The notes beneath the pieces were generated by a model. The model ran no database searches, was not told where the DNA came from, and was given only the letters and a program-made list of their open reading frames with translations. 64,000 bases of DNA, from NCBI GenBank assembly GCA_028867025.1, contig JAGWHC010000001.1, forward strand, positions 574,595-638,594, given 5' to 3'. This document shows positions 4,249-48,723 of the stretch, one piece after another. This DNA comes from Candidatus Micrarchaeota archaeon. Lineage in GTDB: Archaea > Micrarchaeota > Micrarchaeia > Micrarchaeales > CABMGC01. Each line of letters opens with the position of its first letter. Position 1 is the stretch's first letter. Position numbers and translations under genes: made by a program.

Positions 4249-5862
4249 ATGCGAATGGCAGCCGCCAGAAAACCACCGGTCAAAAGAGTCAATGGCGTCC
4301 CTCCCAACAAGCGGACCGGAGGGCCGAGCGGCAGGAATAGGGTTTCAGGCAGGCCGGCCTTCGGGCCAGATGCCAAGAGAACCGTGTGCTACGCAGCGCT
4401 GCTTGCAGTGCTCCTCTTCGCTGCGTGGTACTCTCTAAGCCACATCAACGCCCCCTCAAACCTTGACGACGACACAGCCTACATGCAGTACGGCCTGGCT
4501 TTGGCACACGGCACATTCATGGAGAACGCAAATCCGACGCTTATCCTGAGGTCGCTGATGATTGCCCCGATAGGCGTGATCTACGCCCTGTTCGGATTCT
4601 CGCAGTTCACAAGCGCGCTTTGGAGCATACTGTGCTTTCTGGGCTCAATACTTCTAGCCTTCTTCATAGGCAAGCTGCTTTACGGCGAGTACGTGGGCGT
4701 CGTGTCTGCGCTGCTTCTGAGCTTCATGCCCACAGTCTCCGTGCTTGCGACCACTGTAGACGAGATGGTGCCTTTCGTTTTCGTGTCGTCGCTCTCCATG
4801 CTGTGCCTGATCCTTGGGATGAAAACCGGCAAGGCAAAATTCTATTTCTGCTCCGGGCTCGCTGCATTCGCCTCGTTCCTGGTCTCTCCTCTTGGCGCGA
4901 TAACAGCACTGCTTGTGCTTGTGTACTTGGCATTTAACCTGCTGAAGAAGAAAGAGCCTTCAAGAAGCGCGATGGCATTCACCGTTCTCGGGCTCGCATG
5001 TGGCGTACTGCTGGCCGCGGGCTTCAACGTCTACAGCCACGCAAGCCCGCTTATAGAGTTCACAAGCACGTACAGCTTCTACTCAAGCGAAAACGTCGCG
5101 GCGCTGGTCATACTTGACCCCATCTACTACCTTTCGAACATGTTCCCGCTGAACCTGCAGGCAAGCGCTTCTCCAGGGCCGCAGGTTCTCTACTACTATC
5201 TGCTGATACCTGCCGCCTTTTACCTGGTGATCAGGGAGAGGAAAAAGTCAGGAGTGTTGCTGTACTGGTTCGCATTCGCGCTCTCCTACTTGGCAATCGG
5301 GCCGATGCACCTGAGTTTCAACCCGTTCATGTATTACACAATACCAGAGCTGTGGAGATATCTGGACTCGGTGGCAATGCCGCTTGTGCTGATAGTCGCC
5401 GCTGGCATCGTCGGAATCGCCGGCGATGCGTACAGCCTGCTGGGCAGGCCTCTCTTCGCGGCTGTCGCTCTTGTGTCCATAGCGCTGGTGGGCTATGTCC
5501 TATCCCAATCATTCGCGTCGACAATCTGGCTCTACAACGCAAGCATGGCAGGCCTATCCGGGGACAGGCAGGTGGCTGCGTACCTGAGCACGCTTCCGTT
5601 TAGCGCAAACATCTATCTTCCGAGTTCGTCCCCATATGTGTTCACTTTCATACAGCTCTCTAACATGAGCAGAACTGATAACATAACGCTAATCGTTTCT
5701 CCGCCCAACTGCACGAGCGTGCCAAAGCGGGCATACGTGTACCTGCCATACGAGTGGTACAATTCATCCGCAACCGGGCAGCCAGCGCAACGTTACTGCG
5801 GTTGGGACCCAGCCATGTATCTTGAAAACTACGGGACTGTCTATTACACAGGCAGCACCTGA
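4249..5862 (+). CDS. GT-C fold membrane glycosyltransferase, PMT_2/ArnT-like
   Basis: 537 aa, polytopic. After TM1 the loop motif is LDDDTAYMQYG, then LLYGEYVGVVSALLLSFMP. Clear paralog of the genes at 1..387, 11756 and 13461. Confidence 0.65.
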   Translation: MRMAAARKPPVKRVNGVPPNKRTGGPSGRNRVSGRPAFGPDAKRTVCYAALLAVLLFAAWYSLSHINAPSNLDDDTAYMQYGLALAHGTFMENANPTLILRSLMIAPIGVIYALFGFSQFTSALWSILCFLGSILLAFFIGKLLYGEYVGVVSALLLSFMPTVSVLATTVDEMVPFVFVSSLSMLCLILGMKTGKAKFYFCSGLAAFASFLVSPLGAITALLVLVYLAFNLLKKKEPSRSAMAFTVLGLACGVLLAAGFNVYSHASPLIEFTSTYSFYSSENVAALVILDPIYYLSNMFPLNLQASASPGPQVLYYYLLIPAAFYLVIRERKKSGVLLYWFAFALSYLAIGPMHLSFNPFMYYTIPELWRYLDSVAMPLVLIVAAGIVGIAGDAYSLLGRPLFAAVALVSIALVGYVLSQSFASTIWLYNASMAGLSGDRQVAAYLSTLPFSANIYLPSSSPYVFTFIQLSNMSRTDNITLIVSPPNCTSVPKRAYVYLPYEWYNSSATGQPAQRYCGWDPAMYLENYGTVYYTGST

Positions 5863-5989
5863 TGGTGCGGCTCTCAGACCTACAAGTTTTCCGAATTCTT
5901 GAAATTTGACTATTGACGTAGCCGTATTTCACATGGTGTCAAAGTGTCGTCGGAAAGAACGCTTTCAAAACGCTCTAATTAATACATAT

Positions 5990-5999
5990 CTTTATATAC
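5990..5999 (+). promoter_or_regulatory. Archaeal TATA box (CTTTATATAC) for the 6036 gene
   Basis: TTTATATAC lies about 40 nt upstream of the ATG. The same 9-mer precedes the other pilin-signal gene, at 38375. Confidence 0.45.
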
Positions 6000-6035
6000 A
6001 TTCTTACAGCAACTCTACATTAGAGCTGTGCTTGA

Positions 6036-9000
6036 ATGCCGAATAGGGCGCGCAGAAGGAGAGCCGCGGGTGCACGGAGGGGAAGCAAGAAAGCTCAGTC
6101 TGCGCTTGAATATCTACTTACATACAGCTGGGCCATATTGCTTGTAGCAATAATAGTGGCCGTGCTCTACCTCTTCGTATTCGCGCCTTCGAACGTTACT
6201 CCGAGCAGCTGCATATTCACCGGCGGCACTTACTGCCAGGACGTCGTGTTCAGCTCGAACACAGCTGGAACGAGCGTCGCGCTCTTCCTGACCAACACAC
6301 AGTCATATGCGATAGCAAATCCTTCTGTCACGCTCAACTACAGCGGCACTTCAACCGCGGCATCATGCTCGCCAAGCCTCGTTCTTGAGGGCGGTGCTAT
6401 AATATGCAACGTGAACGTACCACTCAAGGCCATAGCGCTAGGTTCTCTGGCATCAGGAAAGGTGGTGCTCAGCGCGGTACCGTGCCCAAGCGCGAACCTG
6501 GCGCAGTGCTCCTCGGGCCAGGTAGTCGCATACACCGGATCTTTCAACACTCACGTCTCGCCCCTTCTCTCGTCCACACCCTCATCAATAACGATCAGCG
6601 TCCTCAACACCACGCAGGCGGCTAACGGCAACAGGGATCCTGTAACTGCCACAGTTCTGCTTCTAGGAAACCCGATCGGCGGCGCTTCTGTAAGCTTTTC
6701 GCAGGGCGTAGTGAGCGGCTCGGGCACACCTTCCTCGTCCTTCGGGCCAAGCGCCACTACCACCGGCAGCAACGGCCAGGCGCTCGCATACATTTCAAGC
6801 ACGCAGACAGGCACAACGAACGTCATCGCGACATTCGCGGGGCAGACTGTCAACGCGATAGTCAATTTCGTCACGCCGGCGATCACCACAGTTAGCCTCG
6901 GACAGGACGTGATAAACACAGTCTGCTCGGGCAATTCCGGAACATATGTTCTCACTATTGACGGCCAGAGCTACACCTGCTCGCAGCTGCCCATACAGTT
7001 CTCCTACAACCCGAACACGCAGCACAGCTACGCCTGCATCTCCCCCATCTCTGGCTCTTCAGGAACAAGATACGTATTCTCTTCAGTGAGCGGCTGCTCC
7101 GCGAGCGGCGGACAGTCAGGCACATTTACAGTAGGAGCCGCTGGCACAAGTTGCTCGCTCAACTGCGAGTACCAGACGCAGTACTCGTTCTCCGATTCCG
7201 CAAGCCCCAGCATAGGGGGCAGCGTCTCTCCTGCAAGCCAGTTCTATCCGGCCGGCAACGGCGTCAGCATAGTCGCAACCCCCAACAGCGGTTATGGGTT
7301 CGTCGACTGGGCGGGCACCGGCCCAGGCAGCTATAGCAGCGGAACATCACAGACGGGCACTGTCACTATGAATGGGCCGATAACAGAGGTAGCGACATTC
7401 ATGCTTCTCACTACAATCACCAACGCGGCAACCAACGCCGCCACCAACGCGGTGACCAACGCTGTCACAAACGCTGTCACAAATGCAGCAACAACGATCA
7501 CCAACGCGGTGACCAACGCAGTCACTAATGCCGCTACATCAATCACCAACGCTGTGACCAATGCTGTAACCAACGCCGCAACCTCCATCACCAACGCAGC
7601 TACATCCATCACCAACGCAGGAACCTCCATCACCAACGCCGCTACATCGATTACCAACGCAGCAACTTCAATCACCAACGCTGTCACCAACGCAGGAACC
7701 TCCATCACCAACGCCGCTACATCGATTACCAACGCAGGAACCTCCATCACCAACGCCGTGACCAACGCAGCCACCAACGCCGCTACATCCATCACCAACG
7801 CCGTGACCAACGCCGCCACCAATGCCGCGACCACGATCACCAATGCTGTGACCAACGCAGCCACCAACGCAGCGACATCCATCACCAACGCCGTGACCAA
7901 CGCTGTAACCAACGCCGTCACAAACGCAGCAACAACGATAACCAATGCCGCGACCACGATCACCAATGCTGTGACCAACGCAGCCACCAACGCCGCTACA
8001 TCGATCACCAACGCTGTTACCAACGCCGCGACGAACGCATGCAACACATGCTCGACCAACAACTACGGCTGCGGAAGCAGCTGCTCCGAACGAGTATGCT
8101 ACTCCTACGCAGGAAACTGCGTTCCTGGCACCCCAGAGGCCACGATAAGCTGCAGCCAGACTAACCCGCCTCCTGCAGCATGGCAGTGCCTGGTACCGAC
8201 CACAATCACCAACGCGGCCACCAACGCCGCCACCAACGCAGCAACAACGATCACCAACGCCGTCACTAATGCCGTCACCAACGCCGCGACCTCAATCACT
8301 AATGCAGTCACCAACGCAGCCACAATAGCATGTGATGTGTGCTACGCCTCCAGCAACCCCGGCTGCCCAGCAGGCTGCCCGACTGCGCTATATTTCAAGG
8401 ATAGCGCATGCAGTCAATCTGGAACGCCATACGCTAGTTTCACCTGCGTCCTCCTTACAACGATCACCAACGCGGCCACCAACGCCGTCACCAACGCAGG
8501 CACCAACGCAGCCACCACAGTCACCAACGCCGTCACCAACGCAGGCACCAACGCAGCAACTACAGTTACCCACTTCACCAACGCGGGCACCAACGCCGCG
8601 ACTACAATTACCCACTTCACCAACGCAGGCACCAACGCCGCTTCCGGTGCGTCCACCAACGCTCCTAGCGTCTGCAGCTTCAGGGGTGGCACTCCGATCT
8701 ACATGGCAAACGGCCAGATCAAGCCCATAGAGGAGCTACAGCCAGGAGAGGTTTACATGTCGTACGATCCGGCTACAAGAAGCCTGTATCCTGATGTGGT
8801 TGAGAAGCTTGTTACCGCAACAGTGCACGGCGAATACGTGATAAATGACGTTGGCACAGACGCGGTGGAAGAATTCTACACCAAGAGCGGCTGGAAGAGC
8901 GCTGATCAGATCAAGGTCGGCGATTCTATCCTGAACGCTATGTCAATGACATGGACGCCTGTTTACAGCGTTTCCTTCGTCAACACCACATTCACTGTTT

Positions 9001-31096: not shown

Positions 31097-32302
31097 ATGG
31101 GGAAGCCGAACATAACAATAATAGTGCTAGACACACTCAGGCTCGACGCGTTCATGAAGCTGAAGGACACAAGAGGGCGCAGGCTTTCCGACCTTGGCGA
31201 CTTTCACGTGTTCGGGAACTGCATAGCCCCGGCTTCGTGGACCCTTCCCTCGCACGCATCGCTCTTCACTGGCATGTACCCTAGCGAGCACGGCGCGCAC
31301 GAGACCAAGAGGGTCAAGGCGCTGGACATAGCCGAGATAAAGCTAAGGAAGAGGACATTTGTCAGCGACCTGAAGGAGTTGGGATACGAGACCTACGCGA
31401 TATCCGCAAACCCGTACGTGCATCCTGTCTACGGATTCGACGAGTTCGACAGCTTCAGGGAGGAGTCGTATTTCGTCGACATATGGGGCAGCGTCTTCGA
31501 AGTCGCGAGCAAGCTCAAGCCGCTCATAGCCAAATACAGGAACGAGTACGGCAGCGACATCTTCAAGATATCGGCATCGATGCTGAGGCAGGATCCCAAC
31601 CTGTTTCTCGAGGCTGCGGCAAGCGGCATGATTCTCACCCCCATAGCTGCGCTGAAGAAACTCAGGGCAAAGTTCGTGGAGGGCTGGCCGATAGAGAAGG
31701 GAGGGAAGAACATAGTCAAGACGGTGAAGGGCATGAAGCTTGGAAAGCCGTTCTTCATGTTCATCAACATCATGGAGGCCCACGACCCATACACGGACTC
31801 GAAGAAGACAGCGATGAGCTGGGTCACCCCTTTCCTGAAGAAGCGCCCGGATGCCGGGACCATCAGCCTTTGGAAGAGGCTCTATGGAAAGGCATCACAA
31901 AGGGCGTACGAGTACGCATACAGGATAGTGCAGGATCTCATCGGAAGGTTCGGGGAGAACCAGATAATCATACTGACGAGCGACCACGGGCAAGAATTCA
32001 ACGAACATGGATTCATCGGCCACGGCGCGGTGTTGCACGACGAGGTAGTGAAGGTGCCAATCGCCGTCCTGCTCCCCAAAGGCTTCAGAACACCGAAGGC
32101 CAAGGGCTACTCATCGCTGGTCAGCATCAGGGACTTCCTGCTCGCTGCGCTCGATGGAGATAAGAACGCCGCCGAACGAATCTTCCGCAGCCATGTCATC
32201 GCAGAAAGCTTCGGGGTGCCGGCGCAGATATCGCAGGTCAAGGGGATAGACTCAAAGAAGCTGCGTTCGTACGAGAAGACCACAAGAAGGAAGTTTGGCT
32301 AG
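31097..32302 (+). CDS. Alkaline-phosphatase-superfamily (sulfatase-fold) enzyme with Thr nucleophile motif
   Basis: NITIIVLDTLRLD is the metal-binding Asp region. SWTLPSHASLFTG stands in place of the sulfatase C/S-x-P-x-R...TG signature. LTSDHGQEFNEHG is also present. No TM segments. Confidence 0.65.
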   Translation: MGKPNITIIVLDTLRLDAFMKLKDTRGRRLSDLGDFHVFGNCIAPASWTLPSHASLFTGMYPSEHGAHETKRVKALDIAEIKLRKRTFVSDLKELGYETYAISANPYVHPVYGFDEFDSFREESYFVDIWGSVFEVASKLKPLIAKYRNEYGSDIFKISASMLRQDPNLFLEAAASGMILTPIAALKKLRAKFVEGWPIEKGGKNIVKTVKGMKLGKPFFMFINIMEAHDPYTDSKKTAMSWVTPFLKKRPDAGTISLWKRLYGKASQRAYEYAYRIVQDLIGRFGENQIIILTSDHGQEFNEHGFIGHGAVLHDEVVKVPIAVLLPKGFRTPKAKGYSSLVSIRDFLLAALDGDKNAAERIFRSHVIAESFGVPAQISQVKGIDSKKLRSYEKTTRRKFG

Positions 32303-33519
32303 TCAAACGTGCCTATTCCGGCGAACTTACCTTCACTATAAAGGACGAACCTTCCCAGCTCTCTCGTTATGCCGTAGCGCTCCACTGGCACCTTCCTCGC
32401 AAGCTGCACCTCCGCCTCCGCCGCTTCCAGCACTTTCGCCTTCTTGGTGCTGTGGGACTCGCCCGTAGTGGTATCGATGTCGTGCAGTATCCTCACGCTC
32501 CTGCACGCTATGTCTACGCCGTTGAACTTCACAAATGTCTTCTTGCCAAACTTCCCTGTGACGAATATCTTGAGCCTTACCTTGTCTTTCAGTTCTGGCT
32601 TATGGTTGCTGCCAGCTATGACCGAGCCGCGCAGCTCTCTGCCAAAGTTTCCGTCAAGTTTAAGGGCGACATTCTCTCCAACTATTCCATTCCTGACCTT
32701 CTTGCCTTTAACCGCAATCTCCCTGACTGTCGCATTGCCTCCTGACGGCAGCACGCTGACCCTTTCCCCGACCTTAACACTGCCGCTCACAACTCGTCCA
32801 ACAACAAACTCGTCATTCTCCCCAGGTATCGCACCCTGAGCTATTATCCTGAGCGCGCCTTCCTGCTTCCCGCCCTCGTTCTTCGCCTCGTCGTAGAGCA
32901 CGTCTATGAGCGGCTTTCCCCTATACCACTTCAGCCTAGAGCTCTTTTTCACTAGGTTCTCGCCCTTGTATGCAGACACAGGCACGAAATGGACCTTCTC
33001 TCGCGCAAAGCCGATCTTGAATATGAATGTCTTCAGCTCGCGTTCCACCTCTTCGAACCTTTCCTGAGAGTAGCCAACAGTGTCCATCTTGTTTACCGCT
33101 ACTATGAGCCTGTCTAGGCCAAGCATCCTCGATATGAACAGGTGCCTTTTCGTCTGGTCCCTTATCCCTTCGTCCTGCTTTGCAGAGACCAGAAGCAGCG
33201 CTATCTCCCCGTACGAAGCACCGCTGATCATGTTCTTTATGAGTTCCTCGTGGCCCGGCACGTCTATCAGGGCAAATGCGAGTCCCTTGTGCTTTATCTC
33301 GGCCCGCGTGGTGTCGAAGGTCATCTCTCCGAGCCGCTCCTCTGCGAAGCTGTCAAGGATGAAGGCTGGCTCAAAATCCTTATGTAGTCTTCTACTGTAT
33401 TCTTCTGCTTCTCTTATTCTCGCCTGTGTTGCAGCGCCGGTCTGCATCAAAAGGCTGCCTATGAGTGTCGACTTACCGTGGTCCTTGTGACCAAGAAGCG
33501 CTATGTTAGTTACTCTCAT
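32299..33519 (-). CDS. cysN: EF-1alpha/CysN-family GTPase (sulfate adenylyltransferase subunit 1-like; no APS kinase domain)
   Basis: G1 GHKDHGKS, G3 DVPGH, G4 NKMD. 406 aa. Downstream partner of the CysD-like gene. Confidence 0.65.
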   Translation of the reverse strand: MRVTNIALLGHKDHGKSTLIGSLLMQTGAATQARIREAEEYSRRLHKDFEPAFILDSFAEERLGEMTFDTTRAEIKHKGLAFALIDVPGHEELIKNMISGASYGEIALLLVSAKQDEGIRDQTKRHLFISRMLGLDRLIVAVNKMDTVGYSQERFEEVERELKTFIFKIGFAREKVHFVPVSAYKGENLVKKSSRLKWYRGKPLIDVLYDEAKNEGGKQEGALRIIAQGAIPGENDEFVVGRVVSGSVKVGERVSVLPSGGNATVREIAVKGKKVRNGIVGENVALKLDGNFGRELRGSVIAGSNHKPELKDKVRLKIFVTGKFGKKTFVKFNGVDIACRSVRILHDIDTTTGESHSTKKAKVLEAAEAEVQLARKVPVERYGITRELGRFVLYSEGKFAGIGTFD

Positions 33520-33523
33520 AAAT

Positions 33524-34231
33524 TCACGCCAAAATTGATGGAGTACTGCCGGATCTATTAGCGATGAGACCCTGCAGTTTAAGATAGTTCGAATGTTTTC
33601 TTTCTAAATAAACGTGTGCATCATGATAAATCCAGTCGAGGATTTTTGGTATCTGAAAAGTTCCAGTAATGTGAAAAAACCAAGAGTTTTCGCTCGCTCT
33701 TAATATATGATTCGCTTTTGATCTGCATACTGCTTTAAGTATTTCAAGAACTGCGTTCACCATCCCATAGTCTCCATCTACAAAACCGAGATAAGGATTA
33801 CGATTTTTATAGTTAAATCCGAATGAACCGTCACCATCGATTAAGCCTCTTATAAAATGATGTACCAAAGAAGATGGCACAAAATCAAACTGCTTTGAAG
33901 TTTTAACTCCCAAGCCATTCAAATCATTATACAGTTCTACTGATGTTATTTTCAACTCTGCAGATTCGTAATGTTTTCCTGTTCTCGCATCATTGTGATA
34001 TCTAAAATATATGTGATGCTCCGACTTAATTGCTCTTTTAAACTTCTCAAGATGTTTTGCATCGTCTCTTGTCACTTCCAATCGCAATAGACGACCATTT
34101 TCTTTAGTTCTGAAAACTGTACCATCGGCTGATATAAAACCAAGCCAGTACGCCTTTTCTTCAGTATCTATCCTTTTGAAAAAATTGTGGTCAAATTGAT
34201 ATTTTCTTGCGTGATCAGGCAGGCTAGACAC
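33524..34231 (-). mobile_element. Free-standing double-motif LAGLIDADG homing endonuclease gene
   Basis: 235 aa. Motifs YWLGFISADGTVF and FIRGLIDGDGSFGF. No Hint blocks; has its own start and stop. Sits 8 nt after the cysD stop and 4 nt before the cysN start. Strongly AT-rich relative to the flanks. Confidence 0.85.
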
Positions 34232-34239
34232 AAAATCAC

Positions 34240-35028
34240 CTACATATATCCGAGTGCCCTCAATTTTTGCATCGTATACTCCCGTTCCTTGTCCATACTC
34301 CTTCCTGACCTCTCTTCTTGCGTTGTGCTTTCTAATTCTCTTATTATGTCATCTACATTCTTCGCGTTAGATTTCAGCGGAATCGTGCAATGTGTACATC
34401 CAAGACTTCTATATCTATAACCGTTTCTTGAGAAGTACAATGGATTAACTGGTATGTGCTCTTGCTTTACGTACTGCCAAATGTCTATCTCATTGAAATC
34501 TAGTAGGGGATGAACTCTTATGTGTCCTTTAACATCGAGCTTCGACGCATAGTCATCCCAAAGCTCAGCAGGCTGGTCCTTGTAGTTCCATTTGAAGTTC
34601 TGATCACGTGGGCTCATGTATCTCTCCTTGGCCCTTATGCCGTGCTCGTCCCTTCTTATTGATACGATAAGCGCGTCAAATCCATACTCTTTCATTATCT
34701 TCTTCAATGTCTCTGGTTTGTTCTTGCCGCAGCACGCCGAGCCCACGAGATCCGGCTTAATCTCGCTCTGACCCACGATGACCTTGAAGTTCCATTTCTT
34801 TGCTAGGTACTCTCTGAAAGCATAAGTCTCTGGAAAATCGATAGAATTGTCAATATGAATGACTGGGAAAGGTATCTTGCCAAGGAACGCCTTCCTTGTG
34901 AGCGCGAGCATCGTGGTTGAGTCCTTGCCCATGCTCCACAGCGCAGCCACATTCTTGAACTTCAGCTTCGTCTCTCGTATTATGTATATGCTCTTCTCTT
35001 CCAAGGTTTTGAGGTCTTGTTTTATCAT
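34240..35028 (-). CDS. cysD: Sulfate adenylyltransferase subunit 2-like (CysD, PAPS-reductase/PP-loop family)
   Basis: 262 aa. ALWSMGKDSTTMLALTRKAF, RRDEHGIRAKERYMSPRD, IRVHPLLDFNEIDIWQY and RYRSLGCTHCT run collinear with CysD as I recall it. Confidence 0.75.
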   Translation of the reverse strand: MIKQDLKTLEEKSIYIIRETKLKFKNVAALWSMGKDSTTMLALTRKAFLGKIPFPVIHIDNSIDFPETYAFREYLAKKWNFKVIVGQSEIKPDLVGSACCGKNKPETLKKIMKEYGFDALIVSIRRDEHGIRAKERYMSPRDQNFKWNYKDQPAELWDDYASKLDVKGHIRVHPLLDFNEIDIWQYVKQEHIPVNPLYFSRNGYRYRSLGCTHCTIPLKSNAKNVDDIIRELESTTQEERSGRSMDKEREYTMQKLRALGYM

Positions 35029-35337
35029 CTAATCCACCAGGTTCGAAACCTTCAACCCTTCCAGGTATATCGTGGCACCGCGCAACCTCTTGCCCTCCTT
35101 CTTGAATATGGGCACCGAGGTGACTGGCCTGAACCTAGAGTCGTAAAGTTCAACCGAGGACTTCGCAAGGTCCTGCATCTTGCTCAGCTTCCCTTCGTTA
35201 GCGAACATGGCCTTGTAGTACACTATGCCGCTGCCCTTCAGTGCCTTCGAGAACTCCTCCCAGTTCTGATCCGTTGGCGCCTTCCAGAGCATGCTGGCTA
35301 TCTCCTTTATGTTTGCCTTTGCCATGAACATCTCCAC
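35029..35337 (-). CDS. Hypothetical protein, translationally coupled between the RHH gene and cysD
   Basis: 102 aa with no Cys and no motif recognised. Its start overlaps the RHH stop by 1 nt; its stop abuts the cysD start. Confidence 0.45.
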   Translation of the reverse strand: MEMFMAKANIKEIASMLWKAPTDQNWEEFSKALKGSGIVYYKAMFANEGKLSKMQDLAKSSVELYDSRFRPVTSVPIFKKEGKRLRGATIYLEGLKVSNLVD

Positions 35338-35558
35338 TAAGCGTAACCGAGGGCCCTGAGCTTGTTGAGCACGCCCTCCTTCTCGCTCTTCGACCCCTTC
35401 ATCGCCATCTCAGACATGGTCTCCCTGAGCACGTACGTGGCGTAGTCCGATACAGATGAGAAGCCCGTCGTCTTTATCATCGCCTGTATCTTCTGGAAGA
35501 GCGGAGCAGGTATCGTTATCGTCGTATACTTCCTCTTCGTCCCCATCGTCTTTGCCAT
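35337..35558 (-). CDS. Ribbon-helix-helix (CopG/Arc-like) DNA-binding protein with CysD-like C-terminal tail
   Basis: 73 aa. KYTTITIPAPLFQKIQAMI (beta strand + helix), then SSVSDYATYVLRETMSE. Ends EKEGVLNKLRALGYA. Confidence 0.65.
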   Translation of the reverse strand: MAKTMGTKRKYTTITIPAPLFQKIQAMIKTTGFSSVSDYATYVLRETMSEMAMKGSKSEKEGVLNKLRALGYA

Positions 35559-45459: not shown

Positions 45460-48400
45460 ATGATGCAGGCGAGCGAACTCAAGGGCGCTGTTCCCAACGA
45501 GATGTTCGAGACTCTCGAGCAGCGCGGCATAAAGAGCCTCACCCCGCCGCAGGAGATGGCACTTAAGCGCGGCCTGCTCAACGGAGGCAGCATGGTAGTG
45601 GCTTCTCCCACCGCGAGCGGAAAGACGTTCATAGCCGAAATGGCAATGATCAACAGCGTGATCAGGAACAGGAAGAAGGCCGTTTACGTTGCGCCAATGC
45701 GAGCCCTCGTGAGCGAGAAGTACGAGGAGCTCAAGTCAGCTTATCCTTTCCTGAAGATAGCCATGTCAATAGGCGATCTTGATTCCCTTGACCCGTGGCT
45801 CTCCGGCTATGACATAATATTCGCCTCGACCGAGAAGCTGGACAGCCTGATAAGGCACGGGCTCAACTGGCTCGACGACGTGGGCTGCGTTGTGATAGAC
45901 GAGGTGCACATGCTCGACGACGCAAGCCGCGGACCTACCCTTGAGATACTCATGACCAAGCTGCGCAGGCTGTGCAAGAGCGCCCAGATACTTGCGCTCA
46001 GCGCCACGATAGGGAACGCTAAGGAGATAGCCGAATGGCTCGGCGCAGAGCTTGTCGAGAGCGACTACAGACCGGTGAGGCTGGAGAAGGGCGTGACGTT
46101 CAGCGGCAAAGCCTACTATCTTGACAGAGAGGAGGAGCTCGAAGGTGCTAGCTCCATACCCGAGATAAGGATAGTGCAAGATACGCTGGAAAGGGGCAAG
46201 CAGATACTTGTGTTCTATGGGACAAAACGCAACGCTGAGGCAAGTGCGGAAAGGCTGTCGCAGGTAGTCAGCGAAAAGCTCTCGCCAACTGAGCGCGCAA
46301 AGCTCGCAGAACTAAGCGACGACATTCTGCATGCGCTCGGCAAGCCCACAGCGCAGTGCGAGAAGGAGGCGAAGTTGGTTGCGAAGGGCGTGGCATTCCA
46401 CCACAGCGGGCTTGTCAACGCGCAGAGGCATGCTATAGAGGACGCGTTCAAGAGCAACGCACTCAAAGTAATTTGTGCTACACCTACTTTGTGTTTGCCT
46501 GCAGATCAAGATATTCTCTGCTTCAATCCTGGCCCTAACCCCATAAGTAATATTAAAACCGGCGATAAAGTTTTATCAAAAAACGGGAGCTTCGAACAAG
46601 TCATAATTCCCACAAAACGCCAATTTGATGGAAACCTTATCAACGTAATTCCATATGGGCAATTTGGAATGAAAATGACTCCGGAACATAGGGTTTTATC
46701 ATGCAGGAGAAAAATGCATTCTATCCACTCAAAAACAATCAATAAGAAATGGCGGACCTATTCTGCTCCAGAGTGGATTGAGGCTGGAAATCTTAAAGCA
46801 AGCGATATGGTTCTCTTCCCTAGAATAAAAGAAGCTAGAAGCCTAAAGAAACTAAAATTGCCAGAAAGAGGGCCTACTGCCAACCAAACCGGAGTCGTTG
46901 GTACGCATTGGACACAGCTTTTGGTTGGTGCGCTTAAATTGGACAGTAAAACCCTAGAGGCGATGGGGTTGTTTATAGCCGAAGGTTCAACGGGCAGAAA
47001 TGGAGTGATAAACTTCGATATCAATACAAAGGAAGAGGACCTTACAAAGATAATTGTAGAATGGTTCGCAGGCATCGGTCTAAAATACACTGTTAAAGAC
47101 CAAGAGAGGCATAGAAGACGCGTTCGGGCCTGTTCGAAGCAGATAGCAGCTAAATTCAGAGAGCTATTTGGAACCAACGCTCACAATAAGCACATACCTT
47201 CAGAATTTATGTTTTTACCCAAAGGCAGCCTTTTGCACCTCGTAAGAGGAATGTGGTTGGGTGACGGAAGCCTTTCAGTGAAAATTGGTGGTAACGAATC
47301 AAGGTATTCAACAGTTTCTAAGGTATTGGCGCATCAGTTGTTTGCAATTTTAGTTAAACTGGGATACATGCCGCGCATCTCGAAGAAAAAGAACACAGGA
47401 TTTGGAAATTTGGGTCTCCCAAAGGACGTTTTTGTTCTAGGAATCTCTGGAAGACAGTTGAAGAAATTTACAAACGATGTGCTCAATAAGAAAGTAAATT
47501 TTCTAGGAAATAGGGATTACAACTTAGGCCATATCGACAAGAACTATTACTACATGCCTATCAGAAAAATAGAAACATTATCCTATTCGGGTACCGTTTA
47601 TAATCTCGAAGTTGAAAAAGAGTCGAGTTATGTCGGTTCATTCATAGTTCATAATTCATTAGGCGTCAACCTCCCCGCTCACACCGTACTGGTTAGGGAC
47701 ACAAGCAGATACAGCGAGGGCATGGGCTCGGAGAAGCTGAGCGTCAACGAAGTGACGCAACTGTTCGGAAGGGCAGGTAGGCCGAAGTACGACAAGGAAG
47801 GCAGGGGCCTGCTCATAGCAAAGGCACACGCGGAGATAATGGACCTGTACGAGAGGTACATAAACGCCAAGCTTGAGCCGATAAGTTCCAAGCTCGGGAT
47901 GCAGCCGATCCTTCGGATGCACGTGCTCGCTTTCATAGCCACGCGCATGCTGAAGACAAAGGAGGGCATACACGCTTTCCTGCGCGAAACGCTCTACGGC
48001 TATCAGTTCGCCAACACGCACGAGCTTGATGTGATACTCACCAATGTGCTCAGCGAACTCGAGGCATGGAGATTCATAGAAAGAAAGGGCAGTGTATACG
48101 AACCCACGCGCATAGGTCAGAGGGTGAGCGAGCTCTACATAGACCCGCTCTCTGCGAAGTGGCTGATAGACACGCTGCCCAAGGTCACGGACGATGTAGG
48201 CTACCTGTTCACCATCTGCAACACGCTCGAGATGAGGCCGCATGTCAAGGCGACTGAGGAGGCGTTCGAGCTGCTTCCAGGCTACGACCTTCTACTCGAG
48301 GGCTCTGTCATCAACTATGAGGTGGACGAGCCCGAAAAATCGCTCGGCACTGCGCTCGCCCTCCGCGACTGGGCCAACGAGACCCCGGAGAGGGACATAG

Positions 48401-48723
48401 TGAAGAGCTACAACACAACTCCCGGAACGCTGTTCGTGAAGCTGAACAACGCAGACTGGATGCTGTACGCGAGTACAGAGCTCGCAAAGCTGCTGCATCT
48501 CGGGGTCGCGCGCATGCTTGAGCTAAGGGTCAGGACAAAGTACGGAGTGAGGAAGGAGCTGCTCGATCTCATACGCCTCGAGCAGGTCGGAAGGGTGAGG
48601 GCCAGGCTGATGTACAACAATGGCATAAAACGGGTGGCAGACCTCAGGCTTCCGGGTTCAGCGGAAAAAGTGCAGAGGCTCTTCGGCAAGGAAGTGGCAA
48701 AGAAGATACTGGAGCAACTGTAA
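45460..48723 (+). CDS. hel308: Hel308/Hjm (Ski2-like) DNA helicase interrupted by an intein
   Basis: Walker A SPTASGKT and a DEVH box (VVIDEVHMLDD). Motif V is split as ATPTL | intein | SLGVNLPA. The C-terminal ratchet/HhH region ends GIKRVADLRLPGS. Confidence 0.9.
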   Translation: MMQASELKGAVPNEMFETLEQRGIKSLTPPQEMALKRGLLNGGSMVVASPTASGKTFIAEMAMINSVIRNRKKAVYVAPMRALVSEKYEELKSAYPFLKIAMSIGDLDSLDPWLSGYDIIFASTEKLDSLIRHGLNWLDDVGCVVIDEVHMLDDASRGPTLEILMTKLRRLCKSAQILALSATIGNAKEIAEWLGAELVESDYRPVRLEKGVTFSGKAYYLDREEELEGASSIPEIRIVQDTLERGKQILVFYGTKRNAEASAERLSQVVSEKLSPTERAKLAELSDDILHALGKPTAQCEKEAKLVAKGVAFHHSGLVNAQRHAIEDAFKSNALKVICATPTLCLPADQDILCFNPGPNPISNIKTGDKVLSKNGSFEQVIIPTKRQFDGNLINVIPYGQFGMKMTPEHRVLSCRRKMHSIHSKTINKKWRTYSAPEWIEAGNLKASDMVLFPRIKEARSLKKLKLPERGPTANQTGVVGTHWTQLLVGALKLDSKTLEAMGLFIAEGSTGRNGVINFDINTKEEDLTKIIVEWFAGIGLKYTVKDQERHRRRVRACSKQIAAKFRELFGTNAHNKHIPSEFMFLPKGSLLHLVRGMWLGDGSLSVKIGGNESRYSTVSKVLAHQLFAILVKLGYMPRISKKKNTGFGNLGLPKDVFVLGISGRQLKKFTNDVLNKKVNFLGNRDYNLGHIDKNYYYMPIRKIETLSYSGTVYNLEVEKESSYVGSFIVHNSLGVNLPAHTVLVRDTSRYSEGMGSEKLSVNEVTQLFGRAGRPKYDKEGRGLLIAKAHAEIMDLYERYINAKLEPISSKLGMQPILRMHVLAFIATRMLKTKEGIHAFLRETLYGYQFANTHELDVILTNVLSELEAWRFIERKGSVYEPTRIGQRVSELYIDPLSAKWLIDTLPKVTDDVGYLFTICNTLEMRPHVKATEEAFELLPGYDLLLEGSVINYEVDEPEKSLGTALALRDWANETPERDIVKSYNTTPGTLFVKLNNADWMLYASTELAKLLHLGVARMLELRVRTKYGVRKELLDLIRLEQVGRVRARLMYNNGIKRVADLRLPGSAEKVQRLFGKEVAKKILEQL
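46492..47655 (+). mobile_element. Intein (388 aa) with LAGLIDADG homing endonuclease domain
   Basis: Starts at Cys345 (CLPADQDILCF...GDKVLS). Block B is MKMTPEHRVLS. LAGLIDADG motifs are GLFIAEGS and GMWLGDGSLS. Ends VYNLEVEKESSYVGSFIVHN, followed by Ser +1. AT-rich island. Confidence 0.9.

What the first reader, a model, noticed from the sequence alone, without database searches (positions are those of the whole stretch)
33524..34500. Free-standing LAGLIDADG homing endonuclease wedged between cysD and cysN, with an AT-rich tract extending into the cysD 3' end
Seen in sequence:
- A 235-aa double-motif LAGLIDADG ORF (LGFISADGTV, RGLIDGDGSF) has its own start and stop and no Hint blocks.
- It sits 8 nt after the cysD stop and 4 nt before the cysN start, on the same strand.
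- Hand G+C counts per 60-nt line inside the tract: 33601-33660 = 20/60, 34381-34440 = 21/60, 34441-34500 = 23/60.
- Outside the tract: 33301-33360 = 38/60, 33461-33520 = 31/60, 34621-34680 = 30/60.
- The low-GC tract therefore covers the endonuclease and roughly the last 260 nt of cysD, and stops sharply at the cysN start.

Established knowledge: archaeal LAGLIDADG enzymes are normally found inside inteins or rRNA/tRNA introns. Free-standing intergenic homing endonucleases that spread by 'intronless homing' with co-conversion of flanking sequence are best known from phages.

Inference: this is an operon-embedded selfish endonuclease that arrived together with a co-converted cysD 3' segment from a lower-GC donor.
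Basis: partly seen in the sequence, partly recalled or inferred. Interest (0 to 1): 0.65.

Follow-up and report, generated by a model that had tools for sequence, protein, structure and literature searches.

The report
Selfish endonuclease gene between cysD and cysN
A free-standing LAGLIDADG homing endonuclease gene sits exactly at the junction of two sulfate-activation genes in a Micrarchaeota (DPANN archaeon) genome. Close relatives have the same junction empty or occupied by an unrelated endonuclease, so it is a real but mechanistically ordinary mobile selfish gene.

Summary
On the minus strand, a 235-aa double-motif LAGLIDADG ORF (33524-34231) lies 8 nt after cysD and 4 nt before cysN. It lies in the lowest-GC stretch of the window (GC 0.375 against 0.53).

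It is a free-standing homing endonuclease gene:
- It passes the Pfam LAGLIDADG_3 cutoff, and the AlphaFold model (pLDDT 92.8) matches monomeric LAGLIDADG enzymes.
- Both catalytic Asp residues are kept, and no intron or intein is present.
- Most of 18 relatives have an empty junction (cysD TGA, 4-5 nt, cysN ATG), including the two closest, L105 and L007.
- Two other lineages carry a 65-67% identical orthologue at this site.
- Three lineages carry an unrelated LAGLIDADG family there. A 44% homologue sits between dnaK and dnaJ.

- Against HEG-free L105, WIN (the window's allele) has a discrete divergent, AT-shifted block. It comprises the 716-nt insert, about 65 nt of cysD and about 150 nt of cysN.
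- The larger AT-rich cysD block (34309-34578) is 96% identical in HEG-free L105, so it predates this event.
- AT-rich cysD 3' ends accompany endonuclease presence across six lineages (p = 0.0004).

Verdict: a new member of a known kind (intronless homing). Interest is moderate.

The parts
33524..34231 (-). Free-standing double-motif LAGLIDADG homing endonuclease gene ('HEG-A'), 235 aa, GTG start, TGA stop
   Evidence: ORF. Pfam LAGLIDADG_3 scores 2.9e-8, above cutoff. PHROG phrog_4645 'endonuclease' scores 4.1e-45. [quoted passage not shown] Top Foldseek hits are the bI3 maturase, I-AniI, I-OnuI and I-Tsp061I. GC is 0.367 and GC3 0.30.
34121..34147 (-). LAGLIDADG motif 1 (WLGFISADG); catalytic Asp36 at 34124-34126
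   Evidence: Translation. D36 is invariant in a 37-sequence family alignment.
33827..33853 (-). LAGLIDADG motif 2 (IRGLIDGDG); catalytic Asp134 at 33830-33832
   Evidence: Translation. D132, G133 and G135 are invariant and D134 is at least 90% conserved.
33527..34242 (-). Inferred inserted segment (716 nt): a new cysD stop TAG, an 8-nt spacer and the endonuclease ORF without its stop codon
   Evidence: Empty junctions read ...GGnTAyATG TGA (4-5 nt) ATG (L105). The window reads ...GGATATATG TAG gtgatttt GTG...GCG TGA attt ATG. The endonuclease ORF therefore appears to end on the original cysD stop and to leave the cysN initiation region intact. This is inferred from the alignment.
34235..34241 (-). 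Shine-Dalgarno-like AGGTGAT, 3 nt upstream of the endonuclease GTG, overlapping the cysD stop codon
   Evidence: The sequence is shown. Its function as a ribosome-binding site is inferred from the archaeal anti-SD consensus (own knowledge) and was not tested.
33517..33526 (-). Retained junction TGA-attt-ATG (endonuclease stop, 4-nt spacer, cysN start), which mimics the empty-site junction
34243..34308 (-). Inner left flank: the last ~65 nt of cysD, divergent from HEG-free L105 and AT-shifted (candidate co-conversion tract)
   Evidence: There are 18 mismatches in 69 nt against 10 in 270 nt in the adjacent block (Fisher p = 1.3e-7). At almost every mismatch L105 carries the L007 'empty-type' base. 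GC is 0.45 in WIN against 0.57 in L105.
33370..33519 (-). Inner right flank: the first ~150 nt of cysN, divergent from L105 and AT-shifted (candidate co-conversion tract)
   Evidence: There are 41 mismatches in 150 nt against 30 in the next 300 nt (Fisher p = 4e-6). GC is 0.46 against 0.53, and GC3 of codons 1-40 is 0.47 against 0.68.
34309..34578 (-). Outer AT-rich block of cysD (codons ~151-240), shared with HEG-free allele L105
   Evidence: The block is 96% identical to L105 and both are AT-rich (GC 0.41 and 0.40; GC3 about 0.38-0.45). It is only 73-75% identical to L007. The W-to-F change at CysD residue 178 (34492-34494) is shared by WIN, both other HEG-A lineages and L105.
34240..35028 (-). 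cysD (sulfate adenylyltransferase small subunit), upstream host gene
   Evidence: NCBIfam PRK05253 CysD scores 291.8 bits against a cutoff of 195, and Pfam PAPS_reduct is hit.
32299..33519 (-). cysN-like GTPase (large subunit), downstream host gene
   Evidence: Pfam GTP_EFTU domains are hit. NCBIfam CysN TIGR02034 scores 225.7 bits, below its 336 cutoff, and an EF-1alpha subfamily model scores 277.5 bits, also below cutoff. The gene is called cysN from its conserved adjacency to cysD in all relatives.
35029..35558 (-). Upstream operon genes orf102 (35029-35337) and orf73 (35337-35558), abutting cysD with 0-1 nt spacing
   Evidence: The same gene order is conserved in 16 relatives.

Best explanation
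The ORF is a free-standing, monomeric (two-domain) LAGLIDADG homing endonuclease gene. It has inserted precisely at the stop codon of cysD, inside the orf73-orf102-cysD-cysN operon of a Candidatus Micrarchaeota genome.

Proposed mechanism:
1. The gene is transcribed with the operon and translated from its own GTG behind an SD-like AGGTGAT.
2. The enzyme recognises a long site at or next to the uninterrupted cysD-TGA-(4-5 nt)-ATG-cysN junction of endonuclease-free chromosomes and cuts it.
3. Recombinational repair from an endonuclease-bearing allele copies in the 716-nt insert together with variable lengths of flanking cysD and cysN sequence (co-conversion).
4. The insert supplies a new cysD stop codon and ends on the old one, so both host genes and the cysN initiation region stay intact and the cost to the host is small.

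Shown here: the protein family, fold and catalytic residues; the exact empty sites; the patchy distribution; a second endonuclease family at the same site; and the mosaic, AT-shifted flanks.

Inferred: nuclease activity, the position of the target site, expression by translational coupling, and whether the window's lineage gained the gene or L105 lost it.
For: - **Protein.** It passes the Pfam cutoff. The AF2 model is confident (pLDDT 92.8) and Foldseek matches monomeric LAGLIDADG enzymes at E = 1e-10 to 1e-8. D36 and D134 are conserved across 37 homologues.
- **Not in an intron or intein.** It has its own start and stop. No Rfam family is found in 33000-35200 even at E <= 1. No Hint or intein domain is hit.
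- **Presence/absence polymorphism.** The source is a Micrarchaeota MAG. Of 16 GTDB relatives with 82-95% identical CysD, 11 have cysD and cysN 4-23 nt apart with nothing between them. The nearest allele, L105 (CysD 98.9%), is also empty.
- **Orthologues.** Copies 65-67% identical sit at the same junction in two other lineages (L001-L005). A 44% homologue sits between dnaK and dnaJ.
- **Patchy distribution.** In the cysN tree the window is sister to empty L007, and HEG-bearing L001 is far away next to empty L022.
- **Selection.** pN is 0.17-0.24 against pS of 0.73-0.90 among orthologues.
- **Flank mosaic.** The block from about 34305 to about 33370 is 73-74% identical to L105. Adjacent sequence is 96% identical on the cysD side and about 90% on the cysN side.
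- **AT halo.** An AT-shifted cysD 3' end accompanies endonuclease presence in six lineages from two unrelated endonuclease families. Mann-Whitney gives p = 0.0004, with the two AT-rich empties counted against the hypothesis.
Against: - Nuclease activity and the target site are untested.
- The three HEG-A copies are as diverged from one another (dN about 0.29) as the neighbouring cysN (dN about 0.34). Long vertical residence with many precise losses cannot be excluded.
- The cysD 3' segments of HEG-A alleles do not cluster in trees (0% bootstrap). No donor allele was found.
- Two endonuclease-free alleles, L105 and L022, also have an AT-rich cysD 3' part.
- How DNA passes between Micrarchaeota cells is not known.
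Confidence: 0.8

Rival explanations
1. Old resident, no longer mobile. The endonuclease gene entered the junction in an ancestor of this Micrarchaeota clade and has been inherited vertically. The patchy distribution then reflects many independent precise deletions, and the gene is now an inactive or barely active passenger.
For: HEG-A divergence between lineages (65-67% aa, dN about 0.29) parallels that of the neighbouring cysN (61% aa, dN about 0.34). Only one sequence exists in its 90% cluster, so there is no sign of very recent spread. Possible leftovers of decay exist in relatives: a 102-aa single-motif ORF in L011 and anonymous 60-114-nt spacers in L019 and L013.
Against: An immobile selfish gene should decay. 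Instead the ORFs are intact in all three lineages with pN much lower than pS, and the catalytic Asp residues are kept. GC3 has stayed at 0.30 in hosts with GC3 about 0.67, which argues against long amelioration in place. Roughly eight or more exact deletions restoring TGA-4 nt-ATG would be needed on the cysN tree. The sharp divergent block against L105 shows a recent recombination event centred on the insert.
Confidence: 0.15
2. The AT-rich flanks are not imported donor DNA. They arise in place, for example from AT-biased mutation or relaxed codon selection next to the insert. Alternatively they are selected because the cysD 3' end carries expression signals for the endonuclease.
For: The cysD-side halo recurs with two unrelated endonuclease families. 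No sampled HEG-A allele is a closer match to the window's cysD 3' end than empty alleles are. The AT-rich block 34309-34578 also exists in HEG-free L105.
Against: Against L105 the change is a block with sharp edges (74% inside, 96% just outside) rather than a gradient of point changes. Inside it L105 carries the common 'empty-type' bases. The block also includes amino-acid changes and 150 nt of cysN. The window's last 69 nt of cysD are most like those of L013 (0.83) and HEG-A allele L001 (0.77), whereas L105's are most like clean empties (0.77-0.87).
Confidence: 0.2
3. Domesticated LAGLIDADG protein. The gene has been co-opted by the host, for example as a DNA-binding regulator of the sulfate-activation operon, and is kept for that reason.
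For: It is under purifying selection. It is tightly coupled within the operon with an SD-like site. Precedents for co-opted LAGLIDADG folds exist, such as WhiA, HO and maturases (PMC3384342).
Against: It is absent from the closest relatives, which keep the same operon. Its composition is foreign. The metal-binding Asp residues that co-opted relatives such as WhiA have lost are retained here. An unrelated LAGLIDADG family occupies the same spot in other lineages, and a homologue sits in an unrelated operon, dnaK-dnaJ.
Confidence: 0.05
4. The ORF belongs to a self-splicing element, either a group I intron or an intein, as its phage homologues often do.
For: Phage homologues at 30-34% identity are frequently annotated as intron-encoded or 'mobile intron protein'.
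Against: Only 8 nt and 4 nt of non-coding sequence flank the ORF, and it lies between two complete genes. No Rfam intron model matches even at E <= 1. No Hint or intein domain is found, unlike the true intein in the helicase gene of the same window.
Confidence: 0.01

Closest known systems
Phage T4 free-standing homing endonucleases (intronless homing), especially mobE between nrdA and nrdB (PMC2988022, PMC2790892)
   Same: Both are free-standing endonuclease genes lodged in the short spacer between two conserved genes that encode subunits of one enzyme. Both appear to be expressed from the upstream host promoter. Both show presence/absence polymorphism among relatives and co-conversion of flanking host sequence.
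   Different: mobE and the seg genes are HNH or GIY-YIG enzymes in a phage genome. They cut at a distance from their insertion site, and spread occurs in mixed infections. Here the enzyme is a LAGLIDADG protein in a cellular archaeal chromosome. Its cleavage site and the route of DNA exchange are unknown.
Phage LAGLIDADG endonucleases of PHROG phrog_4645 (e.g. Bacillus phage 0305phi8-36 ORF036, Staphylococcus Twort-like phage intron ORFs)
   Same: This is the same sequence family (4.1e-45 to the PHROG profile, 30-34% identity, conserved motifs).
   Different: The profile match starts at position 90 of 308, and most homologues carry an extra N-terminal region of about 40-90 aa that the Micrarchaeota copies lack. 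Pfam helix-turn-helix families are recorded for a few of them. Many phage copies sit in group I introns.
Free-standing LAGLIDADG gene in Haloferax glycosylation islands (PMC5867893)
   Same: Both are free-standing LAGLIDADG genes in an archaeal chromosome, proposed to drive gene conversion of neighbouring DNA.
   Different: The Haloferax gene belongs to a different Pfam family (LAGLIDADG_2). It lies in a variable island rather than at a precise junction inside a conserved operon, and no empty-site or flank-mosaic evidence was given there.
Monomeric LAGLIDADG enzymes with solved structures (I-AniI, bI3 maturase, I-OnuI family, I-DmoI/E-DreI, I-Tsp061I)
   Same: They share the two-domain fold. 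Foldseek gives probability 1.0 with TM 0.5-0.7.
   Different: Sequence identity is only 11-18%, and a PDB sequence search finds nothing at E <= 1. Those enzymes are intron-encoded.
[quoted passage not shown]
   Same: The same conserved host site is occupied in different lineages by unrelated endonuclease lineages (listing; here HEG-A against HEG-B).
   Different: Here both invaders have the LAGLIDADG fold but are unrelated in sequence. The site is an intergenic operon junction, not an rRNA gene.

Membership tests
LAGLIDADG homing endonuclease, monomeric two-domain type | Two LAGLIDADG motifs, each with an acidic metal-binding residue at the penultimate position | tested here: met
   WLGFISAD36G and IRGLIDGD134G. 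D36 is invariant and D134 is at least 90% conserved in 37 homologues. The criterion is taken from PMC3384342.
LAGLIDADG homing endonuclease, monomeric two-domain type | Sequence-profile membership above the curated threshold | tested here: met
   Pfam PF14528 LAGLIDADG_3 scores 34.3 bits against a cutoff of 22.5. PF00961 scores 21.6 bits, just under its 23.1 cutoff.
LAGLIDADG homing endonuclease, monomeric two-domain type | [quoted passage not shown] | tested here: met
   The AF2 model has pLDDT 92.8 and shows the expected order of helices and strands twice. The top 50 Foldseek PDB hits are all LAGLIDADG enzymes or maturases.
LAGLIDADG homing endonuclease, monomeric two-domain type | Site-specific cleavage of a long (about 20 bp) target, leaving 4-nt 3' overhangs | not testable with these tools
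   This needs the purified protein and substrates carrying the L105/L007 junction.
Free-standing homing endonuclease gene (intronless homing) | Own start and stop codons, located between genes, not inside an intron or intein | tested here: met
   There are no Rfam hits and no Hint or intein domain.
Free-standing homing endonuclease gene (intronless homing) | Presence/absence polymorphism at one homologous site, with intact empty sites in close relatives | tested here: met
   Eleven of 16 GTDB relatives plus L105 have only a 4-23-nt spacer. Orthologues lie at the same site in L001-L005. The distribution on the cysN tree is patchy.
Free-standing homing endonuclease gene (intronless homing) | Co-conversion of flanking host sequence with the endonuclease gene | tested here: inconclusive
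   Against L105 there is a sharp divergent, AT-shifted block: the insert plus about 65 nt and about 150 nt of flank (p = 1e-7 and 4e-6). This fits co-conversion. No donor allele was found, and whether the gene was gained by the window's lineage or lost by L105 is unresolved.
Free-standing homing endonuclease gene (intronless homing) | Super-Mendelian inheritance into endonuclease-free genomes | not testable with these tools
   Micrarchaeota have no genetic system. Population-level metagenomic read data would be needed.
PHROG phrog_4645 phage endonucleases | Full-length architecture, including the N-terminal region of about 90 aa | tested here: not met
   The match covers only profile positions 90-302 of 308. 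The alignment shows the N-terminal extension missing from the window protein and from P0002-P0004.
Group I intron-encoded endonuclease | ORF embedded in a group I ribozyme that interrupts a host gene | tested here: not met
   No Rfam match even at E <= 1. The flanking non-coding DNA is 8 nt and 4 nt, and both neighbours are complete genes.
Intein-borne endonuclease | In-frame fusion to Hint splicing blocks within a host protein | tested here: not met
   No Intein_splicing or Hint hit. By contrast, the helicase ORF 45460-48723 hits both Intein_splicing and LAGLIDADG_3.

The most novel reading that the evidence does not exclude
The cysD-cysN junction of Micrarchaeota is a recurrent homing hot spot that at least two unrelated LAGLIDADG lineages compete for. 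Their repeated gain and loss drives exchange of the sulfate-activation operon between lineages whose genomes are otherwise about 25% diverged. This would explain the 86-98% identical orf102-cysD-cysN core shared by the window and L105 inside 60-80% identical surroundings. It would be direct sequence evidence for frequent homologous DNA exchange among DPANN archaea, with 'healed' alleles such as L105 and L022 keeping AT-rich scars of past occupancy.
Probability: 0.35. Interest if true: 0.65.

Novelty: new member of a known kind. Interest (0 to 1): 0.5.

Why it matters
Free-standing homing endonucleases are textbook features of phages and organelles and are rarely documented in cellular archaeal chromosomes. 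This locus offers an unusually complete natural series in uncultivated DPANN archaea:
- empty sites;
- two unrelated endonuclease families at one junction;
- a truncated copy;
- anonymous remnants;
- a mosaic allele with sharp recombination edges.

Three things follow.
1. The empty junction of L105/L007 gives a concrete, testable target for a new LAGLIDADG specificity.
2. The locus is a marker for homologous DNA exchange between Micrarchaeota lineages.
3. It shows how a selfish gene can sit inside an operon at almost no cost, because it supplies a new stop codon upstream and reuses the old stop and spacer downstream.

The mechanism itself is not new.

Tried and rejected
- **Single-protein scan of JGI metagenome contigs** with the endonuclease found no relative. 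The alignment-based scan returned only 30-39% identical, phage-like relatives and no further close alleles.
- **PDB sequence search** found nothing at E <= 1. Fold comparison was needed instead.
- **Donor test.** I asked whether the cysD 3' ends of HEG-A alleles share a donor haplotype.
  - NJ trees of codons 171-262 gave 0% bootstrap for a WIN+L002+L004 clade.
  - HEG-A alleles and clean empties share the window's residues at variable sites to the same extent (0.31 against 0.30).
  - The exception is the Phe for Trp change at CysD residue 178.
  - I therefore do not claim a common co-converted haplotype.
- **Remnant search.** I looked for recognisable endonuclease remnants in the 114-nt (L013), 60-nt (L019) and 15-23-nt spacers (L022, L017) by blastn and tblastx. 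Nothing significant appeared.
- **L015 ORF.** The ORF after cysD in L015 ends in a CxxCG...DHI motif. It gave no Pfam or PHROG hit, so it stays unassigned.
- **dN/dS ratios** could not be computed for most pairs because synonymous sites are saturated. Only pN against pS is reported.
- **L007 comparison.** L007 alone suggested a smooth divergence gradient toward the insert. The closer allele L105 showed this is really a mosaic of blocks.
- **Bacterial promoter/terminator scan.** I did not use it, because it does not cover archaeal promoters.
Full report
**1. What is in the sequence**

All relevant genes are on the minus strand.
- cysD is 34240-35028 (262 aa).
- An 8-nt spacer follows.
- A 235-aa ORF, 33524-34231, starts with GTG.
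- A 4-nt spacer follows.
- A cysN-like GTPase gene is 32299-33519 (406 aa).
- Upstream, orf102 and orf73 abut cysD with 0-1 nt spacing, so the five genes form one operon-like block.
- A convergent sulfatase gene overlaps the end of cysN by 4 nt.

cysD is a clear CysD: NCBIfam PRK05253 scores 292 bits against a cutoff of 195. The 'cysN' scores below the curated cutoffs of both the CysN and the EF-1alpha models. It is named here from its conserved adjacency to cysD.

The central ORF passes the Pfam LAGLIDADG_3 threshold and has no intein domain. Its motifs are WLGFISADG and IRGLIDGDG.

The tract 33524-34500 has GC 0.375 and is the lowest-GC 977-nt window of the 64 kb, whose mean is 0.527 with sd 0.034. 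GC3 is 0.30 in the ORF and about 0.40 in cysD codons 151-240. It is 0.64 in cysD codons 1-150 and 0.65 in cysN. Of 46 long ORFs in the window, only this ORF, an intein-bearing helicase gene and cysD contain a 90-codon stretch with GC3 <= 0.40.

**2. The protein**

- A 37-sequence alignment of homologues shows D36 invariant and D134 at least 90% conserved. These are the penultimate acidic residues of the two motifs, which bind the catalytic metals (PMC3384342).
- Foldseek against the PDB returns only LAGLIDADG enzymes and maturases, including bI3, I-AniI, the I-OnuI family, E-DreI and I-Tsp061I. E-values are 1e-10 to 1e-8 at 11-18% identity. A plain sequence search of the PDB finds nothing.
- The protein belongs to PHROG phrog_4645 (4e-45), matching profile positions 90-302 of 308.
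- Phage homologues are 30-34% identical, and many are annotated as intron-encoded.
- The Micrarchaeota copies lack the N-terminal extension that most homologues carry.
- No group I intron or any other Rfam family is detectable around the ORF, even at E <= 1. With 8 and 4 nt of flanking spacer there is no room for one.

**3. Relatives: empty sites, orthologues and a second family**

The exact protein is annotated in a Candidatus Micrarchaeota MAG on a 658-kb contig.

*Orthologues of this endonuclease ('HEG-A').* Its two nearest homologues are 65-67% identical and also lie between cysD and cysN, on contigs from other samples (L001-L005). The next homologue, at 44%, lies between dnaK and dnaJ, with its stop overlapping the dnaJ start.

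*Empty sites.* A scan of one genome per GTDB species with CysD gave 16 loci with 82-95% identical CysD. In 11 of them cysD and cysN are separated only by a stop codon and 4-23 nt. Eight of these read ...GGnTAyATG TGA, 4-5 nt, then the start codon of cysN.

*A second family ('HEG-B').* Some junctions are occupied by something else.
- L018 carries a double-motif LAGLIDADG ORF of about 300 aa.
- L106 carries a 308-aa orthologue of it, 62% identical.
- L011 carries a 102-aa single-motif ORF that overlaps both the cysD stop and the cysN start.
- L018 and L011 both match PHROG phrog_5046. The L018 protein is unrelated to HEG-A by BLASTP (E = 0.13).

*Other junction states.*
- L013 has an anonymous spacer of 114 nt and L019 one of 60 nt.
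- L015 has an unassigned ORF that runs off the contig end.

*Distribution and selection.* On a cysN tree the window is sister to empty L007, while HEG-A-bearing L001 is far away beside empty L022. The distribution is patchy. Among HEG-A orthologues pN is 0.17-0.24 and pS is 0.73-0.90, so the ORF has been under purifying selection.

**4. The insertion point**

The window reads ...GGATATATG TAG gtgatttt GTG[ORF]...GCG TGA attt ATG-cysN. The closest empty allele, L105, reads ...GGCTACATG TGA tttc ATG-cysN.

The simplest reading is a 716-nt insert (33527-34242) placed between the last sense codon of cysD and its TGA.
- The insert brings a new stop codon (TAG) for cysD.
- It brings an SD-like AGGTGAT 3 nt upstream of its own GTG.
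- Its ORF ends on the old cysD stop, so the old TGA-spacer-ATG initiation region of cysN is preserved.

All three HEG-A alleles have TAG as the cysD stop, whereas all 12 junctions with spacers of 4-23 nt, L105 included, have TGA. This reconstruction is inferred from the alignment.

**5.

*Across alleles.* The last ~60 codons of cysD have GC3 0.25-0.46 in every endonuclease-bearing lineage: the window, L001/2, L004/5, L011, L018 and L106. In clean empty alleles the figure is 0.49-0.86. I expressed this as a difference from each locus's own cysN GC3. The six occupied lineages then differ from 12 empty ones with Mann-Whitney p = 0.0004, with the two AT-rich empties (L105, L022) counted against the hypothesis.

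*Against L007.* Third-position identity falls from 0.55-0.57 (background) in cysD codons 41-160 to 0.47, 0.38 and 0.32 toward the insert.

*Against L105, the decisive comparison.* L105 comes from the same 90% CysD cluster as the window; its CysD is 98.9% identical and its junction is empty. Nucleotide identity to the window runs in blocks:

| Segment | Window coordinates | Identity to L105 | Note |
|---|---|---|---|
| cysD nt 1-120 | 35028-34909 | about 98% | |
| cysD nt 121-450 | 34908-34579 | about 85% | |
| cysD nt 451-720 | 34578-34309 | 96% | AT-rich in both (GC 0.41 and 0.40) |
| cysD last 69 nt | 34308-34240 | 74% | 18 mismatches; L105 carries the common empty-type bases; GC 0.57 against 0.45 |
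| cysN nt 1-150 | 33519-33370 | 73% | 41 mismatches; GC 0.53 against 0.46 |
| cysN beyond nt 150 | below 33370 | about 90% | |

The excess of mismatches in the two inner flanks gives Fisher p = 1e-7 and 4e-6. The window's last 69 nt of cysD are most like those of L013 (0.83) and HEG-A allele L001 (0.77). L105's are most like clean empties (0.77-0.87).

Relative to its nearest endonuclease-free allele, the window therefore differs by one discrete, AT-shifted block from about 34305 to about 33370. The block is the insert plus about 65 nt of cysD and about 150 nt of cysN. This is what a homing event with short co-conversion tracts leaves. The reverse event, conversion of an occupied allele to empty, leaves the same pattern.

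The larger AT-rich cysD block (34309-34578) is shared with the empty L105 allele. It was not brought in by the event that separates the two alleles.

Because AT-rich cysD 3' ends otherwise track endonuclease occupancy, I think L105 is most likely a 'healed' ex-occupied allele that keeps the outer part of an older halo. That is inference. The alternative is that the window gained the gene with short tracts into an allele that was already AT-rich there.

I could not identify a donor. HEG-A alleles do not cluster in trees of the cysD 3' segment (0% bootstrap). The window-L007 pairing that has 94% support in the 5' segment falls to 0-20% in the 3' segment. One two-nucleotide change, Trp to Phe at CysD residue 178 (34492-34494), is shared by the window, both other HEG-A lineages and L105.

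**6. Mechanism and rivals**

*Best explanation (confidence about 0.8).* This is a free-standing LAGLIDADG homing endonuclease gene that spreads, or spread until recently, by intronless homing into the cysD-cysN junction. It is co-transcribed with the operon and carries flanking sequence with it.

Whether the enzyme cuts at the junction itself or in the conserved cysN 5' coding sequence is unknown. T4 free-standing enzymes cut at a distance from their insertion site (PMC2988022).

*Rivals.*
- An old, vertically inherited and now immobile resident (0.15). Divergence parallel to cysN favours it. Intact ORFs, pN much lower than pS, unameliorated composition and the sharp L105 mosaic count against it.
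- AT-rich flanks arising in place or selected as expression signals, rather than imported (0.2). This concerns the flanks only.
- Domestication for a host function (0.05).
- An intron- or intein-borne gene (0.01).

**7. Comparison with what is known**

- The closest functional analogue is T4 mobE, a free-standing endonuclease gene between the nrdA and nrdB subunit genes that is expressed from the nrdA promoters (PMC2988022). mobE is an HNH enzyme in a phage.
- Free-standing LAGLIDADG genes in an archaeal chromosome have been noted in Haloferax (PMC5867893).
- Micrarchaeota are known to carry LAGLIDADG genes in rRNA group I introns (PMC6125680).
- I found no report of an operon-junction endonuclease gene in DPANN archaea, but the paper library is limited.

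I classify this as a new member of a known kind.

**8. Verdict**

The co-conversion geometry needs correction: the tract reaches about 150 nt into cysN. Only about 65 nt of cysD belong to the block that separates the window's allele from L105, and the rest of the AT-rich cysD segment is older. Interest is 0.5. It is a clean, well-documented natural example with an immediately testable target site and some bearing on DNA exchange in DPANN archaea, but it is mechanistically expected.

Noticed in passing
window 45460-48723 (+), low-GC part about 46450-47650: A Hel308/Ski2-like helicase ORF (1087 aa) carries an in-frame intein with a LAGLIDADG_3 domain. Pfam hits are DEAD, Helicase_dom4_arc, Intein_splicing and LAGLIDADG_3. 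Its GC is 0.35-0.46 against about 0.55 around it. This is a second, canonical (intein-borne) homing endonuclease in the same window.
   Followed up: partly
L018 4792-5700; L106 3001-3927; L011 4786-5094: An unrelated LAGLIDADG family (PHROG phrog_5046) occupies the same cysD-cysN junction in other Micrarchaeota. L106 has a full 308-aa ORF with an ATG start. In L018 the first motif (WLSSVIEGDG) lies upstream of the first canonical start codon (GTG at 4897), so that copy may be decaying or may use an unusual start. L011 has only a 102-aa single-motif ORF that overlaps both neighbours' stop and start codons.
   Followed up: partly
L015 about 4807-5261 (contig end): Downstream of cysD, whose C-terminal residue here is Leu with a TAA stop, lies a different ORF of more than 150 aa that runs off the contig. 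It ends in ...RCAGCGETRISLLTLDHI, which resembles the start of an HNH motif. It has no Pfam or PHROG hit. It may be a third kind of endonuclease at this junction.
   Followed up: partly
L006 6001-6729: The 44% identical homologue P0004 sits between dnaK and dnaJ (grpE-dnaK-HEG-dnaJ). It lies 28 nt after the dnaK stop, and its own stop overlaps the dnaJ ATG. Its GC is 0.30-0.39 within sharp edges. The subfamily therefore seems to specialise in junctions between conserved operon partners.
   Followed up: partly
window about 35380-32420 against L105 about 4650-6900: The orf102-cysD-cysN core is 86-98% identical between the window and L105, and orf102 with cysD codons 1-40 is also unusually close to L007. 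The surrounding genes (thrS side, sulfatase) are only 60-80% identical. The operon core looks recently exchanged between otherwise diverged lineages.
   Followed up: partly
L022 (15-nt spacer), L013 (114-nt spacer), L019 (60-nt spacer): These endonuclease-free alleles have unusual spacers. L013 and L019 have TAG stops, as the HEG-A alleles do. L022 and L013 have AT-shifted cysD 3' ends (GC3 0.43). They may be scars of past occupancy, but no endonuclease remnant could be recognised.
   Followed up: partly
window 32299-33519 (-): The 'cysN' scores below the NCBIfam cutoffs for both CysN (225.7 against 336) and EF-1alpha (277.5 against 502). It is a divergent CysN/EF-1alpha-like GTPase whose assignment rests on its adjacency to cysD. 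Next to it are a sulfatase gene and, in relatives, a glycosyltransferase gene, which hints at a sulfation pathway rather than assimilation.
   Followed up: no
L007 and L011, locus coordinates about 2400-3400: Another low-GC stretch (0.31-0.41 against about 0.5) lies roughly 600-1600 nt upstream of cysD in two relatives. It was not examined.
   Followed up: no
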